IMG/VR virus record: IMGVR_UViG_3300047160_006104
Location: 29,865 to 93,864 of that record
Direction: 5' to 3' (one strand)
DNA length: 64,000 nucleotides
Source: a virus
Lineage: Duplodnaviria > Heunggongvirae > Uroviricota > Caudoviricetes
Shown piece after piece: positions 43,031 to 61,800 of this stretch. Each line of letters opens with the position of its first letter. Positions within the stretch are counted from its first letter, which is position 1. A model generated the notes under the pieces. That model worked only from the letters and a program-made list of their open reading frames with translations. It was not told the DNA's origin and did no database searches. The position numbers and the translations under genes are program-made.

Positions 43031-43117
43031 GTGTCTGCTCCAATCCTTTTACCAGCGTGTGACCCAAATCATATGGCACCTGGCTGGCATTGTGAAGTCA
43101 TGGCTGTAATTTACCGG

Positions 43118-43267
43118 CTATTTCAGCCGCAGAATCATCACATTGAACACCCGTAACATGTCGATTCTGCGGTCACTGTCTTTGGTGGGTCGGGTCGACC
43201 ACGCCTCCCCGAACTGGTCCCACGTCACGTCGCGCTTGAACTGGATACGCTTCCTCAGTCTGTCCAT
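43118..43267 (-). CDS. small basic protein (MDRLRKR...)
   Basis: Leaderless ATG 6 nt after TATAAT with TGCCAGC box. Confidence 0.35.
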   Translation of the reverse strand: MDRLRKRIQFKRDVTWDQFGEAWSTRPTKDSDRRIDMLRVFNVMILRLK

Positions 43268-43314
43268 GCCACGATTATATAACACCATGCTGGCACTTGC
43301 GACGGTCGTGCTGT

Positions 43315-43539
43315 TCACCAGGCGATCGTAGGCGGCAACGACACCACAGTGCGGGCGAACAAATCAGGGTCGATAATCGGATCATCCCCCAGCATGACAG
43401 CGCGGGCGCGGGAAGCATCCACCACCGTTTTGAATCGACCGATCACCTCGCCGCTGTCGTCGTCGATCAGCGACACCGGCGCCCCGGCCGGCCCGTCGGT
43501 GTGCAGGCTGATCATCTGCGGATAGGTGTCATCGGTCAT
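43315..43539 (-). CDS. hypothetical acidic protein
   Basis: 74-aa ORF. Confidence 0.4.
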   Translation of the reverse strand: MTDDTYPQMISLHTDGPAGAPVSLIDDDSGEVIGRFKTVVDASRARAVMLGDDPIIDPDLFARTVVSLPPTIAW

Positions 43540-43644
43540 CTGAAGCCTTTCCAGCCGGCTGAGGCGCCACCACCAGCGCCGAGCAGCTGAACCAGCGCGA
43601 TGATGCCGACCTCAACAGCGACGACAATCTCAAAAGTAGTCACG
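43536..43644 (-). CDS. 35-aa membrane peptide
   Basis: RBS AAAGGAG. 'EIVVAVEVGIIALVQLLGAGGGAS'. ATGA-coupled to downstream gene. Coordinates +/-1. Confidence 0.3.
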
Positions 43645-43655
43645 CGGTTTCTCCT

Positions 43656-44591
43656 TTACTGCGGCCAGGTCACGGTGATGGCCGAGTCGGTCGAGGTCAC
43701 CTGAGCGAACGACTCCACGCCCGGCCGAAACGCGTCCCAGCGTTGCATTCCGACGCGGAGCCGCTGCAGCGTGCAGGGTGTCGGGAGCGACACGGACAGA
43801 CCGCCGATGGGCAGGGTCGGTGAATGTATCGGCGTGATATCCGACGGGTAGTTGAGGTAGATGCCGGAGGCGTCGGTGGTCATGATGACGTCTGTCTCGA
43901 CACCCGGCAGCTCGTTGTCCCAGTGGTTCATCCAGACCCGCAGGGCTTGGATCGTGCAGGGCGTGTCTTTGGTGGTGGCGAAGGCCTGCGGAGACGGGGG
44001 GGCGACGGGCACCACCGGGGCGCCGGGTGTCAGGTTGAAGTTCGCCCAGATCGCCGGCTGCGAGGGCGGGTCGGTGGTGTACTTGCTGGCGGTGATGCAG
44101 AGATAGAGGCTGGTCACATTCAGCACGGGGGTGGCCGATTGCTGGATCGTCCAGTCCACGCCGCCCGGCGAGGTCTCCCAGTACACGGTGCCAGCATGCT
44201 CGCGTATCCGCAGCCACTGGTGCTCAACCGGGTCATACGGGATGGTGGTCGAGGGTCCGGCACCGCTGACGTGCTCGTAGAAGCTCAGTTGGTTGTTCTC
44301 CCAAAGGATGGATTCGTTGTTGCCCGGCGGGAAGGTCGAAACGGGACTGAGCTGCAGCGCCGTCCAGATACCGACGGTGCCGATGCTGACCGGCTGGACG
44401 AGTTGCATGAGAACGTGGGACTCGGTGAGGTCATAGGCGGCCACGCTCGTCAGGCCGCGGGAGCCAGTGGAGACCGGTACCAGGCTGAAGGTGCCCCCGC
44501 CTACGGTCCCGTTGTAGAGGGTCCATACGGCGGGGTTGAGCGCGGTGAAGTTGTCGGTGAGCGTCGCCGCTTTCGGCGTCGGTGCGGTCAT
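43656..44591 (-). CDS. LamG/ConA-like jellyroll protein with two C-terminal ~40-aa repeats (carbohydrate-binding-like)
   Basis: 'DNFTALNPAVWTLYNGTVGGGTFSL..', 'YDPVEHQWLRIREHAGTVYWETS'. Repeats 'TPCTIQALRVWMNHWD...' / 'TPCTLQRLRVGMQRWD...'. Confidence 0.45.
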   Translation of the reverse strand: MTAPTPKAATLTDNFTALNPAVWTLYNGTVGGGTFSLVPVSTGSRGLTSVAAYDLTESHVLMQLVQPVSIGTVGIWTALQLSPVSTFPPGNNESILWENNQLSFYEHVSGAGPSTTIPYDPVEHQWLRIREHAGTVYWETSPGGVDWTIQQSATPVLNVTSLYLCITASKYTTDPPSQPAIWANFNLTPGAPVVPVAPPSPQAFATTKDTPCTIQALRVWMNHWDNELPGVETDVIMTTDASGIYLNYPSDITPIHSPTLPIGGLSVSLPTPCTLQRLRVGMQRWDAFRPGVESFAQVTSTDSAITVTWPQ

Positions 44592-44830
44592 CTCAACCCA
44601 GCACCGTGCACGGCGACTTTGTTCTTGCTTGCAGCAGGCATAGCGCGCATCATCGCGCAGGTTTTCCGTAGAACCCGGTAGCGACACTGCTATAGTGAGG
44701 CCCGCTAGCTCCCCCCAGTGCGAACCGTATCCAGCCGGCAGATACCGCAAGGTACCGGGAGGACGCCGGTCCCAGACACTGAGAAGGACCGGACCCACAT
44801 TAGGAGTTCAAGCACTTCCATCCCTCTCCC

Positions 44831-44908
44831 GGCCCGTTAGCTTAGTGGTAGAGCGGGAGATTCCCGGTAAGTTCTCTGTCGTCGGCGGTTCGATTCCGTC
44901 ACGGGCCA
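44831..44908 (+). tRNA. tRNA-like gene with non-canonical anticodon arm
   Basis: 7-bp acceptor stem GGCCCGT/ACGGGCC. D-arm GCTT-AGTGGTA-GAGC. T-arm GGCGG-TTCGATT-CCGTC. But 28 nt between D and T arms cannot form a standard 5-bp/7-nt anticodon stem-loop (best: GGAGA/TCTCT stem with 12-nt loop). Confidence 0.5.
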
Positions 44909-45127
44909 CATTGGTGTAACAGGTGTAACGCGTGTAACGGGTCATACCATGAGGTGATGATCGGGTGATGATCGGCGCTACACCGGCCGATCGCAGCCTG
45001 TATTGCCCGTGTCAGGACTTCCGGATGATCTGCCGATACTGCGGCATGCAAGTCCGGTGAAACCGCTCACACCCACACCCGCGACGAAAACACCGCCCCT
45101 TGGATGAACTGTGCGACAACGCGGGAT

Positions 45128-59853: not shown

Positions 59854-59873
59854 GTCGTCGTTCTCCCTTTGTC

Positions 59874-60206
59874 TCAGAAGTAGTCTGGGCAGAAGTGGAA
59901 TTCAGCCCCGTGTACGGCTAGCCGCACGATGCGGGTGTCTAAGCCGGTGGATGCGCCGATGTTGACGGCCTGACCTTCCGACATGCCTTTGCGCATGTCG
60001 TTGCACACCGTGCGGCCGAAGTCGGTGGCTTCGGCGACGCCGAACGGGGCACCGAGTTCATTGAGCATGTTCCAGTAGTTGTAGCCATCCTGGTCGCCCA
60101 TGTATCCACCGCCGTAGGGGTTAGCGTTGCCCGGGTACGCGTGGGCCGGCGCGGCGCTCAACGCGACCGCGAACGCCGCCACCACCGCTGCTTTCAGGTA
60201 TTTCAT
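59874..60206 (-). CDS. secreted small protein (signal peptide, two Cys)
   Basis: 'MKYLKAAVVAAFAVALSAAPAHA'. Start preceded by GGATTGGAACAGAC. Confidence 0.5.
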   Translation of the reverse strand: MKYLKAAVVAAFAVALSAAPAHAYPGNANPYGGGYMGDQDGYNYWNMLNELGAPFGVAEATDFGRTVCNDMRKGMSEGQAVNIGASTGLDTRIVRLAVHGAEFHFCPDYF

Positions 60207-60508
60207 GTCTGTTCCAATCCTTGCGGCGATAAATTATTTTTCTCGGGTGCGCCAAGTGGGGGCCGCAGTAGAAAACAGCCTCCGAGGCTTGGCTAGCACC
60301 CGTCCATCCTCTCTTCGGTCGGCGACAAGCAGGCTTTGGACACCCGCCCGCCGCTAGCGGATACCGACCCTTGTGGCATGGTCACGTAGATGCTTTTCGC
60401 CGGCGCGTCTGGCGGAACGATTGCTCGCGTAGCCGCCGCTGTTGATCGGCCCGCATATCTCGCAGATCACGCGCCAACCGACTTGCCCGTCACACACAAT
60501 GTCAACTC

Positions 60509-61354
60509 TCATGCCGACTTCGCCTTGGCAGCCTTGGCTTTGCCCTTGGCTTTACCGGCAGGGTGACGCGCAATCGAGGCCTCAAGTGCGGCCATCAGAT
60601 CGGCCACGTCTTCGACGGTTTCGGCTTCTTGGCGCACCGGCATGGGTGCACCGGCCTGTTTCGCGTCGAGCAACTCGTTGACCTTGGCCGCGTACTCATC
60701 GACCATCGACTCATCGACCTCGGAGAAATCAGCCACCATCTGTTCCATGAACTGTGTGGCCAGCTTTTTCACCTTCGGGTCAAGTTCGACCGGCTTTTTC
60801 AATGATGCGAAGTCAGCTTCACGTAGCTCGTCGCGCCACAGCACGTTTTGCATGACGATCACGTCACCGACAGGGCGCAGGATGGCCTGGTGGGTGCGCC
60901 CGCGCATGGTGTAGCGGACGACCGCGACTCGGCGGGATTCTTCCATGATGGTGCGGATCAGCGCATACCCTTCGGGCGCGTTCTTGTTGACTTTCACGTC
61001 GGGTTCCAGGTAGTACGGGGTTTCCAGTCGCAGCGGGTTGATTTCATCGAAGTTGACGAACGCTTCCACGTCGAAGTCTTTGCCGCTGTCGGTTTCGCAT
61101 TCGGCGAGTTCCTCGGCGGTGACCAGGATCGCGGTGTCGCCGCGCATCTGGCCGCGTACGAGGTCGTTGCGGTTGGGGATGGTTTCGCCGCAGTCGTTGC
61201 ACACGCACGGCATGGACACGCGCGAAGCGGAGCCGTCGTCGTGGACGTGGAACATGTTGAAGCTGATGGCGTGGGATTCGGTGGCCGCGTATTGGCGTAC
61301 GGGGACGCTGATGAAGGGTCCGAAGCTGATGTTGGTGTTGCTCATTGATCGCAT
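60509..61354 (-). CDS. ku: Ku (non-homologous end-joining DNA end-binding protein)
   Basis: 'ISFGPFISVPVRQYAA', 'YYLEPDVK', 'VVRYTMRGRTHQAILRP' colinear with bacterial Ku. Lys/Ala-rich tail. Confidence 0.75.
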   Translation of the reverse strand: MRSMSNTNISFGPFISVPVRQYAATESHAISFNMFHVHDDGSASRVSMPCVCNDCGETIPNRNDLVRGQMRGDTAILVTAEELAECETDSGKDFDVEAFVNFDEINPLRLETPYYLEPDVKVNKNAPEGYALIRTIMEESRRVAVVRYTMRGRTHQAILRPVGDVIVMQNVLWRDELREADFASLKKPVELDPKVKKLATQFMEQMVADFSEVDESMVDEYAAKVNELLDAKQAGAPMPVRQEAETVEDVADLMAALEASIARHPAGKAKGKAKAAKAKSA

Positions 61355-61369
61355 GGTGTCTGTTCCAAT

Positions 61370-61411
61370 CTCTATACCACAATCATACGGCATGTCACGC
61401 CAACAAGTCAA
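61370..61411 (-). promoter_or_regulatory. conserved sigmaA-type promoter (TTGACT-N18-TATGAT), copy 2, driving ku
   Basis: Paralogous to 58717..58758. Confidence 0.55.
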
Positions 61412-61604
61412 GTGCTAGCGCTGGGTTGCCTTTCGGGGGCCTACGTTTTCGCCGGGTATGAGCCAGCCCTTTGGTGGCGACGTATATAGCGTTGGGTTTC
61501 CATTGCGGATTTTTGCCGCTGGTGCGTCCTGAGATTTTGGGTGTCTGTTCCATACCTGCATCCTATCACATTTGTGTTGGCTTGACAACATAGGGTGGTG
61601 GGAT

Positions 61605-61630
61605 GTGTAACGGTGTAACGGGTGTAACGG
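61605..61630 (+). repeat. GTGTAACGG x3 tandem motif overlapping -10 region of TTGACA promoter (61583)
   Basis: Direct reading. Same triplet at 21229, 21539 (inverted), 44913. Confidence 0.6.
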
Positions 61631-61800
61631 TACGTCCGCATAGGGGATAGCCCGTGCGTCCTGCGTGGGAGGGTTCGATACGGAGAGGCATGCTTGGCCG
61701 TGCGTCCTACCCGGAAGCATAGCATAATCGGCGAGGCTTGACAAAGCATTGGAATGGGAGTAACATCGAGGACAGGACCCACCAGATCGGAAACAGACAC

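What the first reader, a model, noticed from the sequence alone, without database searches (positions are those of the whole stretch)
43031..61790. Start-associated conserved 16-mer GGATTGGAACAGACAC immediately upstream of several ATG codons
Near-identical copies directly abut the start codons of PE (43031..43046), the secreted protein (60207..60220), ku (61355..61370) and 61801 (61778..61790). A fifth copy lies at 61541..61556, and one lies inside the loop of the lysis-cassette terminator (53629..53643). This is reminiscent of the start-associated sequences described in Cluster K mycobacteriophages but with a different sequence. It suggests a dedicated translational-control element or regulatory RNA-binding site.
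Basis: seen in the sequence. Interest (0 to 1): 0.6.

Follow-up and report, generated by a model that had tools for sequence, protein, structure and literature searches.

The report
Start-codon-linked leader motif in phage
An uncultured mycobacteriophage-like virus and its relatives put one unusually conserved ribosome-binding sequence in front of a subset of independently promoted accessory genes; this resembles the still-unexplained "start-associated sequences" of Cluster K mycobacteriophages but has a different sequence.

Summary
GGATTGGAACAGACAC occurs 6 times at ≤2 mismatches (0.06 expected), plus a gapped seventh copy at 61785-61800. Four copies end 0-1 nt before validated ATG starts: PE, a secreted DUF732 protein, Ku and a 76-aa gene. 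Each of the four lies 10-21 nt after a −10 hexamer or −10-like element (three scanner-detected promoters, one read by eye). The motif is therefore tied to the start codon, not to the promoter.

It is composite: an extended Shine-Dalgarno, (G)GATTGGA(A/G), plus an A/C-rich spacer, CAGACAC. The exact 16-mer is absent from relatives (Ku 42-56% identical). The 5' half is lineage-wide: ATTGGAR plus an A/C-rich spacer precedes 17 of 156 genes in six related loci. All 17 start with ATG and none is translationally coupled.

Two copies are not start-linked. One lies at a predicted transcript 5' end. The other lies at the apex of the terminator hairpin between the lysis cassette and the leftward operon. 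In three diverged phages the motif's reverse complement sits at the apex of a strong hairpin on the gene-sense strand.

Best reading: a new sequence family of start-associated translation-initiation elements. A dedicated trans-factor is not shown. A repressor operator remains a rival. The hairpin could be a matching antisense ("anti-SAS") partner.

The parts
43031..43046 (-). Motif copy GGATTGGAGCAGACAC, abuts the ATG of PE
43068..43096 (-). Sigma-70-like promoter TTCACA-17-TATGAT; its -10 ends 21 nt before the motif
42734..43030 (-). PE-family gene (98 aa), first gene of a PE-PPE operon
   Evidence: PF00934, E=1e-15; PPE at 41315-42697
60205..60220 (-). Motif copy GGATTGGAACAGAC+AT(G); its last 2 nt are part of the ATG of the DUF732 gene
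59874..60206 (-). Secreted DUF732 protein gene (110 aa, signal-peptide-like N-terminus)
61356..61371 (-). Motif copy AGATTGGAACAGACAC, 1 nt before the ATG of Ku
61382..61411 (-). Promoter TTGACT-18-TATGAT for Ku; its -10 ends 10 nt before the motif. Shares a ~41-nt cassette with the DUF932 promoter (58728-58757), which has no motif
60509..61354 (-). Ku gene (281 aa), followed by a terminator-like hairpin at 60277-60289
61541..61556 (-). Motif copy GGTATGGAACAGACAC at the predicted 5' end of the transcript from promoter 61560-61588. No start codon follows it. The internal ATG opens a 52-codon ORF with GC3 0.57, which looks non-coding
61560..61588 (-). Promoter TTGTCA-17-TAGGAT (TG-extended); its -10 ends 3 nt before the motif copy
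61785..61800 (+). Gapped motif copy GATCGGAAACAGACAC, abuts the ATG at 61801
61738..61766 (+). Promoter TTGACA-17-TAACAT; its -10 ends 18 nt before the motif copy
61801..62031 (+). 76-aa gene of unknown function, first gene of the rightward operon
53630..53645 (+). Motif copy GGATTGGAACAGACAA, not followed by a gene. It matches the DUF732 initiation region at 19 of 20 positions (ATG replaced by AAG). On the - strand it reads as the anti-motif
53615..53670 (.). 13-bp, 92% GC perfect stem enclosing a 30-nt apical region that holds the motif. It lies between the convergent lysis cassette (+) and the leftward operon (-). There is a U-run on the + strand and a CUUUCUU tract on the - strand
48620..48635 (-). 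Weak copy GGCTTGGAACAGCCAC (2 mismatches), antisense inside a + strand gene; relevance uncertain
13860..13875 (-). Weak copy GGATTGGGACGGATAC (3 mismatches) in codons 2-7 of a second DUF732 gene that starts 6 nt after a TATAAT; relevance uncertain

Best explanation
The 16-mer is a start-associated translation-initiation region. It acts in the mRNA of genes that sit first behind their own promoter. It consists of an extended Shine-Dalgarno element, (G)GATTGGA(A/G), in which GGAA or GGAG is the SD core. This is followed by an A/C-rich, structure-poor spacer (CAGACAC in this genome) that runs up to an ATG.

Together with a 10-21 nt stretch after the -10 hexamer, it makes up almost the whole short 5' leader of PE-PPE, DUF732, Ku and the first rightward gene.

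Shown here:
- The copies exist far above chance.
- They are anchored to the start codon and not to the promoter.
- The SD-proximal half is conserved as a start-associated element in front of unrelated genes across a lineage of related uncultured phages.

Inferred:
- The motif gives these early or accessory genes efficient ribosome loading.
- Because positions that cannot be explained by SD pairing are conserved, and each genome has its own extended version, some phage- or host-encoded partner (protein or RNA) may recognise it and so co-regulate the set.

The two copies without a start codon (one at a transcript 5' end, one in the terminator hairpin) would then be extra sites for that same partner or for the ribosome. 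This last step is the weakest.
For: Over-representation:
- 6 copies at ≤2 mismatches against 0.06 expected.

Anchoring to the start codon:
- Four copies end -2 to +1 nt from supported ATG starts.
- The distance from the -10 hexamer to the motif varies (21, 10 and 18 nt, and 3 nt for the non-start copy).
- The Ku promoter cassette is reused at DUF932 without the motif, and PE carries the motif behind a different promoter.
- The SD core lies 5-8 nt from the ATG.

Structure and duplication:
- The initiation regions fold less stably than shuffled controls (z +0.6 to +1.7).
- There is no flanking homology between copies.

Relatives (Ku 42-56% identical):
- ATTGGAR lies within 22 nt of 17 of 156 called starts.
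- All 17 use ATG, against 74% of the other genes.
- The upstream gap is always ≥24 nt.
- Of 49 genes with GGAG at SD distance, 15 have ATT before it, against a background of 3.7%.
- GATTGGAG occurs 8 times in L062 against 0.86 expected.
- Spacers are 4-9 nt (one of 13), 49% A and 34% C.
- Near-identical strings recur: L080 and L082 ATTGGAGAACACCATG, L070 (Ku) GATTGGAGAACCACACACATCATG, L071 GGATTGGAAAGCCAGACATG.
- L086 has its own 22-nt version, present twice.
Against: - Two strong copies (61541-61556 and 53630-53645) have no start codon at SD distance, so RBS function alone does not explain the whole family.
- The closest relative by DUF932 (L245, 70% identical) uses ordinary GAAAGGAG sites. 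It carries GGAACAGACA as an exact 10-mer upstream of a separate SD, so the 3' half may have a role of its own.
- Other promoter-proximal genes in the window use canonical AGGAGG or GAAGGAG, so the motif is not required.
- There is no expression, TSS or ribosome data, and the host and its 16S 3' end are unknown.
- Only 64 kb of the 113,757-bp source contig could be read.
- Gene starts in the relatives come from automatic gene callers that themselves favour SD-like sequences.
Confidence: 0.55

Rival explanations
1. The motif is a double-stranded DNA operator for a phage repressor or regulator, stoperator-like. A protein binds the asymmetric site just downstream of several promoters, and at the terminator, and blocks transcription. 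The closeness to start codons would be a by-product of very short leaders.
For: - All six copies lie between about +1 and +35 of a promoter-like site or in a terminator.
- Three copies cluster in the 445-bp divergent control region between Ku and gene 61801. Two of them form an inverted pair around the back-to-back promoters (I6).
- Two copies have no start codon.
- Orientation-independent occurrence in hairpins is natural for a DNA site.
- The 3' half is genome-specific, as expected for co-evolution with a regulator.
- A Cro/CI-type HTH protein is encoded at 45313-45648.
Against: - The offset to the ATG is nearly fixed (-2 to +1 nt) while the offset to the -10 varies from 3 to 21 nt.
- The part conserved across relatives is exactly the SD core plus ATT, at SD-typical and variable spacing, always in the sense orientation and always with ATG.
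- The site has no dyad symmetry.
- There is no match to the L5 stoperator consensus above chance.
- GC-rich stems of unrelated sequence flank the reversed copies in three phages, which a DNA site does not need.
Confidence: 0.2
2. The motif is one half of an RNA-RNA pair. The terminator hairpin on the gene-sense strand displays the reverse complement (anti-SAS, YUCCAAUC...). It base-pairs with the motif-bearing initiation regions of the same or other mRNAs and masks SD and AUG. This resembles the way C-rich hairpin loops of small RNAs such as 6C, RsaE or RNAIII occlude ribosome-binding sites.
For: - On the strand encoding Ku and the motif genes, the only occurrences of YTCCAATC in the window, L062 and L245 each lie at the apex of a strong hairpin (z -4.4 to -5.0).
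- The stems are unrelated in sequence.
- The L245 stem contains 7 G·U pairs, so it forms only in the sense RNA.
- The loop variant matches each genome's own motif variant: UUCCAAUCC with GGATTGGAA in the window, CUCCAAUC with GATTGGAG in L062.
- The window loop is complementary to the DUF732 initiation region at 19 of 20 positions.
- Cluster K1 phage Anaya carries its single reversed SAS in a 10-nt loop on the sense strand.
Against: - A reversed copy of the same DNA motif gives the same 'complementarity' trivially.
- In the window the hairpin is more stable, and has the better U-run, on the + strand, where it shows the sense motif.
- In L245 and in the window the anti-motif is partly base-paired within the hairpin.
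- The 21 kb of L245 seen here has almost no SAS targets.
- Cluster K3 phage Pixie has 18 SAS and no reversed copy.
- There is no evidence that a stable RNA is made.
- The association was noticed post hoc.
Confidence: 0.15
3. There is no dedicated function. The copies would be the same ribosome-binding cassette spread by short-patch recombination or illegitimate recombination when accessory genes ('morons') were acquired, and kept only because any good RBS works.
For: - The genes are typical accessory cargo (PE/PPE, DUF732, Ku).
- There are only about six copies in 64 kb.
- Other promoter-proximal genes do well with canonical SDs.
Against: - Identity stops sharply at the motif edges.
- The ATTGGAG-type site is maintained in front of non-homologous genes in phages whose Ku proteins are only 42-56% identical and whose GC content ranges from 54 to 66%.
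- ATG is used 21 of 21 times.
- Copies also occur where no gene starts.
Confidence: 0.1

Closest known systems
Start-associated sequences (SAS) of Cluster K mycobacteriophages (Pope et al. 2011, PMC3203893)
   Same: - Short asymmetric repeat at the RBS position.
- Contains an SD core plus conserved positions not explained by 16S pairing.
- Strong preference for ATG.
- One orientation relative to transcription.
- Confined to non-structural genes.
- Sits in front of unrelated gene families and is conserved across related phages.
- A stray copy is not linked to a start.
- Function unknown.
   Different: - Different sequence: GGATTGGAACAGACAC or GATTGGAG against GGGATAGGAGCCC, with 0 hits in the window.
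- It runs right up to the ATG (0-1 nt) instead of stopping 3-7 nt before it.
- Fewer copies seen (6 in 64 kb).
- No ESAS inverted repeats.
- Every start-linked copy is promoter-proximal.
- The phage lineage is unrelated and uncultured.
SAS-like motif GGGAAAGGACCCC of Cluster EF Microbacterium phages (Jacobs-Sera et al. 2020, PMC7302621)
   Same: A second published case of an over-conserved RBS-position repeat in actinobacteriophages, with about ten copies and unknown role.
   Different: The sequence is different. It comes with an ESAS-like GTAGAG element, which was not seen here.
Stoperators of Cluster A mycobacteriophages (L5 gp71 sites)
   Same: Asymmetric sites of about 13-16 bp, oriented with transcription, lying in short non-coding gaps near gene ends.
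   Different: - The L5 consensus is not enriched (3 hits against 3.1 expected).
- The copies here are tied to the start codon at SD spacing and contain the SD itself.
- No cognate repressor has been identified.
Translational operators of phage T4 RegA (knowledge of the field, not tested)
   Same: One factor recognising a loosely conserved sequence that overlaps SD and AUG of many early mRNAs would produce the same genomic picture.
   Different: No RegA homologue or any RNA-binding protein was identified. RegA sites are AU-rich and poorly conserved.
C-rich-loop small RNAs that mask SD regions (6C/B11 in Actinobacteria, RsaE and RNAIII in Staphylococcus; knowledge of the field, not tested)
   Same: A hairpin loop complementary to ribosome-binding sites. 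This is how the anti-motif hairpins would work if the RNA-RNA reading is right.
   Different: - The hairpins here are gene or operon terminators, not known independent sRNA genes.
- No Rfam family matches.

Membership tests
Cluster K start-associated sequences (SAS) | Match to the consensus GGGATAGGAGCCC with ≤2 mismatches | tested here: not met
   0 hits in the window against 1.35 expected. As a control, Anaya gives 16 and Pixie 18 on the coding strand of the stretch scanned.
Cluster K start-associated sequences (SAS) | Short asymmetric repeat immediately upstream of predicted start codons, mostly ATG | tested here: met
   4 of 6 strong copies end -2 to +1 nt from supported ATG starts. In the relatives, 17 of 17 are ATG.
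Cluster K start-associated sequences (SAS) | One orientation relative to transcription; restricted to the non-structural part of the genome | tested here: met
   Every start-linked copy is in the sense orientation. All strong copies lie at 43-62 kb. None lies in the tail genes (0-9 kb) or in the glycosyltransferase block.
Cluster K start-associated sequences (SAS) | Contains the SD core at RBS position, plus conserved positions without 16S pairing potential | tested here: inconclusive
   The GGAA or GGAG core lies 5-8 nt from the ATG. ATT before GGAG is conserved (15 of 49 against a 3.7% background). The host 16S 3' end is unknown, so pairing was judged only from the general actinobacterial sequence recalled from memory.
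Cluster K start-associated sequences (SAS) | Conserved across related phages in front of different gene families | tested here: met
   It precedes Ku, ArdA, GmrSD-like, Ion_trans, DUF932, HTH and unknown genes in L062, L070, L071, L078, L080, L082 and L086.
Cluster K start-associated sequences (SAS) | About half of the sites carry an extended SAS (17-bp imperfect inverted repeats) just upstream | tested here: not met
   Pairwise local alignment of ±120 nt around all copies finds nothing shared beyond the motif. Upstream there are sigma-70-like promoters instead.
Cluster A stoperators | Consensus GGTGGMTGTCAAG in many copies | tested here: not met
   3 hits at ≤2 mismatches against 3.12 expected.
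Cluster A stoperators | Bound by the phage immunity repressor; silences transcription | not testable with these tools
   A Cro/CI-type HTH protein exists at 45313-45648, but binding cannot be assessed.
Ordinary Shine-Dalgarno ribosome-binding site | Purine-rich core complementary to the 16S 3' end, 4-12 nt upstream of the start | tested here: met
   GGAA or GGAG lies 5-8 nt before the ATG in the four start-linked copies and 4-9 nt (one of 13) in the relatives.
Ordinary Shine-Dalgarno ribosome-binding site | Flanks and spacer free to vary between genes | tested here: not met
   14-16 nt are identical between unrelated genes in the window and 22 nt in L086. ATT is fixed before GGAG.
SD-masking hairpin-loop small RNAs | Stable transcript whose exposed loop pairs with target ribosome-binding sites | not testable with these tools
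   Complementary hairpin apices are present in three phages. The existence of an RNA product and of pairing in vivo is unknown.

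The most novel reading that the evidence does not exclude
Start-associated sequences may come with a matching antisense partner. This would be a terminator-type hairpin on the same-sense transcripts whose apex carries the reverse complement of the genome's own start-associated motif. By pairing with SD and AUG of the motif-bearing mRNAs, in trans or by 5'-3' contact within an operon transcript, it would shut off or time the translation of a set of early or accessory genes.

The same arrangement occurs in three diverged phages of this lineage. 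The lone reversed SAS of Cluster K1 phage Anaya is arranged the same way. This would give the first mechanistic handle on what SAS motifs do.
Probability: 0.15. Interest if true: 0.75.

Novelty: new variant of a known kind. Interest (0 to 1): 0.5.

Why it matters
Start-associated sequences have been known in Cluster K mycobacteriophages since 2011, and later in Cluster EF Microbacterium phages. Their function is still open: a 2025 survey of 188 Cluster K genomes still calls for experimental verification.

A third, sequence-unrelated family in an uncultured lineage shows that over-conserved ribosome-site motifs on subsets of non-structural genes recur in actinobacteriophages. They are not a quirk of one cluster.

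This case adds three usable facts:
- The motif marks genes that sit first behind their own promoter.
- It is modular: a lineage-wide extended SD plus a genome-specific spacer.
- A reversed copy sits at the apex of a hairpin in several phages.

Each fact can be tested with simple reporter constructs in Mycobacterium smegmatis without having the phage in culture. Practically, the motif could serve as a compact leader for expressing genes in mycobacteria and as an aid for calling gene starts in this phage lineage.

Tried and rejected
- **Close relatives carrying the same 16-mer.** There is no megablast match in 50,697 phage records. An exact 15-mer scan of IMG/VR gave 57 single hits, which is chance level, and no multi-copy locus. 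Ku, a Ku-family alignment and DUF932 found no relative in IMG/VR. In GTDB genomes the single-Ku scan found none and the alignment scan found nothing above 36% identity (best hits in Microbacterium).
- **Metagenome fragments with identical proteins.** These are 100% identical pieces of the same phage and so are uninformative.
- **The 113,757-bp source contig.** It could not be fetched. P0001 is not on record as a called gene, so the remaining ~50 kb of the genome was not scanned.
- **Cluster J phages, the nearest cultured Ku (35%).** There Ku sits inside an operon with no comparable leader, so they were dropped as comparators.
- **Extended homology between copies** (a duplication or mobile-element explanation). 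None was found.
- **RNA structure sequestering the SD in the leaders.** None was found; the leaders are less structured than shuffles.
- **Known RNA families.** Only one tRNA was found.
- **The GATTGGAG at 39226-39233.** It lies inside a 43-codon ORF and is taken as chance.
- **The 52-codon ORF at the 61541 copy as a leaderless gene.** GC3 is 0.57 against ≥0.72 for real genes here, so it is probably not coding.
- **The anti-SAS hairpin as a general Cluster K feature.** It is present in Anaya (K1) but absent in Pixie (K3).
- **Resemblances recalled from memory.** CsrA-type GGA sites, tRNA T-loops and a 16S helix-44 segment were considered. None was testable here, so none is used.
- **Literature search.** A search for GATTGGAG in a phage context returned only unrelated papers.

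Full report
**What the window is.** The 64-kb window is part of a large phage genome. Identical Ku and DUF932 proteins are recorded on a 113,757-bp JGI metagenome contig. Small 100%-identical fragments occur in other metagenome assemblies.

The window encodes the following:
- tail proteins;
- a lysis cassette with two endolysins at 49.6-52.7 kb;
- RecT, YqaJ and glycosyltransferases;
- a set of mycobacteria-type accessory genes: PE and PPE, two DUF732 proteins, Lsr2, DUF932 and Ku.

No cultured phage is close: there is no megablast hit, and Ku is 35% identical to Cluster J phages. DUF932 homologues at 45-50% identity lie in Mycobacterium and Mycolicibacterium genomes. The host is therefore inferred to be a mycobacterium or close kin, but this is not shown.

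**The observation.** GGATTGGAACAGACAC occurs 7 times at ≤3 mismatches (0.52 expected) and 6 times at ≤2 mismatches (0.06 expected). Read on the motif strand, the copies are:

| Copy | Strand | Sequence | Relation to a start codon |
|---|---|---|---|
| 43031-46 | − | GGATTGGAGCAGACAC | directly before the ATG of PE |
| 60205-20 | − | GGATTGGAACAGAC + ATG | ATG of DUF732 overlaps the last 2 nt |
| 61356-71 | − | AGATTGGAACAGACAC + C + ATG | 1 nt before the ATG of Ku |
| 61785-800 | + | GATCGGAAACAGACAC | directly before the ATG at 61801; matches only with a gap |
| 61541-56 | − | GGTATGGAACAGACAC | no start codon follows |
| 53630-45 | + | GGATTGGAACAGACAA | no start codon follows |

The four starts are independently supported:
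- The Pfam PE match begins at residue 3.
- DUF732 has a signal-peptide-like N-terminus.
- The Ku N-terminus MRSM is nearly invariant across homologues.
- The 76-aa gene is called identically on separate contigs.

**Anchored to the start codon, not the promoter.** Three of the start-linked copies, and the 61541 copy, lie just downstream of one of the few good sigma-70-like promoter matches in the region. The gap from the end of the −10 hexamer to the motif is 21 nt (PE), 10 nt (Ku), 18 nt (gene 61801) and 3 nt (the 61541 copy). DUF732 has a TANNNT element 10 nt upstream; this was read by eye and not scored by the scanner.

The distance to the promoter therefore varies, while the distance to the ATG is −2 to +1 nt. 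The Ku promoter is a ~41-nt cassette that is reused almost verbatim in front of DUF932. There it is followed by an ordinary AGGAGG site and no motif. PE carries the motif behind an unrelated promoter. Promoter and motif are thus separable modules.

Pairwise alignment of ±120 nt around all copies finds nothing shared beyond the motif, at most 20 nt. The copies are therefore not relics of larger duplications.

**Anatomy.** The SD-like core (GGAA or GGAG) sits 5-8 nt from the ATG. The rest of the 3' half is an A/C-rich spacer, and the 5' half adds (G)GATT. The leaders fold more weakly than shuffled sequences (z +0.6 to +1.7), as expected for efficient initiation regions.

**Relatives.** Ku homologues at 42-56% identity lead to contigs from at least seven other uncultured phages with GC content of 54-66%. 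None contains the 16-mer, but all contain its 5' half in the same position.

In six loci (97 kb, 156 called genes):
- 17 genes have ATTGGA(A/G) within 22 nt of the start.
- All 17 start with ATG, against 74% of the other genes.
- All have an upstream gap of ≥24 nt, so none is translationally coupled.
- 17 of the 29 occurrences of the heptamer on either strand are start-linked.

Among 49 genes with GGAG at SD distance, 15 have ATT in front of it. The next most common trinucleotide has 4, and the background is 3.7%. GATTGGAG occurs 8 times in L062 against 0.86 expected.

Over 22 sites the consensus is G-ATTGGAG-AA followed by an A/C-rich spacer of 4-9 nt (one of 13), with composition 49% A, 34% C and 8% each of G and T.

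Strings very close to the window's motif recur in front of unrelated genes:

| Locus | Sequence | Gene |
|---|---|---|
| L070 | GATTGGAGAACCACACACATCATG | Ku |
| L071 | GGATTGGAAAGCCAGACATG | Ion_trans |
| L082 | GATTGGAGATACCAGACATG | unknown |
| L080 / L082 | ATTGGAGAACACCATG | GmrSD-like |

L086 has its own 22-nt version, CACGAAGGAATTGGAGACAAA, present twice. Several of these sites follow promoter-like or operator-like sequences or terminators.

The window's 16-mer is therefore the local, extended version of a lineage-wide start-associated element. This argues strongly against chance or neutral hitch-hiking.

**The two copies without a start codon.**

*The 61541-61556 copy.* It begins 3 nt after the −10 of promoter 61588-61560, which places it at the predicted transcript 5' end. 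The ATG inside it opens only a 52-codon ORF with GC3 0.57. Real genes here have GC3 ≥0.72. That ORF also runs into the Ku promoter. It is probably a non-coding leader.

*The 53630-53645 copy.* It lies in the apical 30 nt of the strongest large-loop hairpin in the window, with a 13-bp stem of 92% GC. Folding energy is −44 kcal/mol (z −6.6) on the + strand and −39.6 kcal/mol (z −4.8) on the − strand. The hairpin lies between the convergent lysis cassette and the leftward operon that ends with the Ion_trans gene. This copy matches the DUF732 initiation region at 19 of 20 positions, with AAG in place of ATG.

*Counterparts in other phages.* On the strand that encodes Ku and the motif-bearing genes, the reverse complement YTCCAATC occurs exactly once each in the window, in L062 and in L245. 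L245 is the closest relative by DUF932, at 70% identity. Each time it lies at the apex of a strong hairpin (z −4.4 to −5.0).

- The stems are unrelated in sequence.
- The L062 hairpin is followed by a U-run.
- The L245 stem has 7 G·U pairs, so it forms only in the sense RNA.
- The loop variant follows each genome's own motif variant.

In the window only 15 of 64,000 positions would place a 16-mer fully inside the loop of a hairpin with a stem of ≥12 bp. The association is therefore unlikely to be chance, although it was noticed post hoc.

In Cluster K1 phage Anaya the single reversed SAS also sits in a 10-nt loop on the sense strand. Cluster K3 phage Pixie has no reversed copy.

**A complication.** In the 21 kb seen, L245 uses ordinary GAAAGGAG ribosome sites and almost no ATTGGAG. 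Its Ion_trans leader nevertheless contains the exact 10-mer GGAACAGACA, 19 nt after a −10 element and upstream of a separate AGGAG. The 3' half of the window's motif may therefore have a role beyond spacing.

**Interpretation.** The best-supported reading (0.55) is a start-associated translation-initiation region. It is an extended SD plus an unstructured A/C-rich spacer, used by genes that sit first behind their own promoter. It acts in the mRNA. Positions that SD pairing cannot explain are conserved, and each genome has its own extended version. Both facts hint at a specific partner, but none is shown.

The rivals are:
- A duplex-DNA operator for a regulator (0.2). This explains the start-less copies and the cluster of three copies in the divergent Ku/61801 control region. 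It does not explain the fixed offset to the ATG, the SD core, the sense-only orientation or the SD-like spacing in relatives. The L5 stoperator consensus is not enriched.
- An RNA-RNA pair with the hairpin as an antisense partner (0.15).
- A functionless shared cassette (0.1).

**Comparison with what is known.** The closest known things are the SAS of Cluster K mycobacteriophages and the SAS-like motif of Cluster EF Microbacterium phages. The behaviour is the same in nearly every respect tested. Membership by sequence fails, with 0 hits to GGGATAGGAGCCC, and no ESAS accompanies the motif. I therefore file it as a new variant of a known kind: a third sequence family of start-associated sequences, in an uncultured lineage. 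The function of the whole class remains unresolved.

**Limits.**
- Only 64 of ~114 kb of the genome was available.
- The relatives are partial contigs with automatic gene calls.
- The host is unknown.
- There are no expression data.
- The hairpin association was found while exploring and rests on three phages plus one Cluster K subcluster.

Noticed in passing
window 41315-43030 (-), continuing to about 38.0 kb: A PE gene (98 aa) and a PPE gene (460 aa) sit as a pair in a phage genome, followed by several small ORFs with no family match. This looks like an ESX-substrate-like cargo operon driven by its own promoter.
   Followed up: partly
window 13233-13880 (-): A second DUF732-domain protein. 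Its ATG lies 6 nt after a TATAAT (leaderless-type start), and its codons 2-7 carry the weak motif copy GGATTGGGACGGATAC. Its promoter region (GCCAGCCCGGTG..TATAAT) is closely similar to the Ion_trans promoter of relative L245 (about 14000-14030).
   Followed up: partly
window 61372-61800: Divergent control region between Ku and gene 61801. It holds four sigma-70-like promoter matches (two back to back at 61716-61766), three tandem GTGTAACGG(T/G) repeats at 61605-61631 just upstream of a -35, and a 20-nt direct repeat CCGTGCGTCCT... at 61652 and 61698. It may be the early or immunity switch.
   Followed up: partly
window 61372-61411 and 58718-58757 (-): The Ku and DUF932 genes share a ~41-nt promoter cassette, TTGACTTGTTGGC..ACATG..TAnGAT TGTGGTATAGA. 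An inverted version of TGTTGGC.TGACA overlaps the -35 of promoter 61588. This may be a shared operator.
   Followed up: no
window 44831-44909 (+), 45313-45648 (-): A tRNA-Arg(CCG) gene lies next to a 380-aa unknown protein, with a Cro/CI-type HTH_3 protein nearby. This is a possible immunity region. No integrase was seen in the window.
   Followed up: no
window 56102-56722 (-): A phage-encoded Lsr2 homologue (dimerisation and DNA-binding domains).
   Followed up: no
window 53692-54120 (-); L071 8908-9321; L245 14065-14484: A small ion-transport-like membrane protein recurs in this phage lineage. It is next to Ku in L071, and next to the anti-motif hairpin in the window and in L245.
   Followed up: no
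L086 2690-2715 and 3104-3131: A relative (Ku 43%) has two copies of a 22-nt initiation region, CACGAAGGAATTGGAGACAAA, in front of unrelated small genes. This is a genome-specific extended version of the same element.
   Followed up: partly
L163 (phage Anaya) 39871-39883 (-), record 59870-59882: The single reverse-oriented Cluster K SAS lies in a 10-nt loop (CCUCCUAUCC on the sense strand) closed by a 6-bp GC stem, in the gp96-gp97 intergenic gap.
   Followed up: partly
L071 4153-4199; L082 6342-6385; L080 about 5535-5560: Long AT-rich or TGTACA-type inverted repeats (operator-like) lie 15-25 nt upstream of ATTGGAG-type starts in relatives.
   Followed up: no
window 48620-48635 (-): GGCTTGGAACAGCCAC (2 mismatches; about 0.03 expected per window by my own calculation) lies antisense inside the + strand gene 48138-48944. 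That gene's mRNA would therefore carry an imperfect anti-motif.
   Followed up: no
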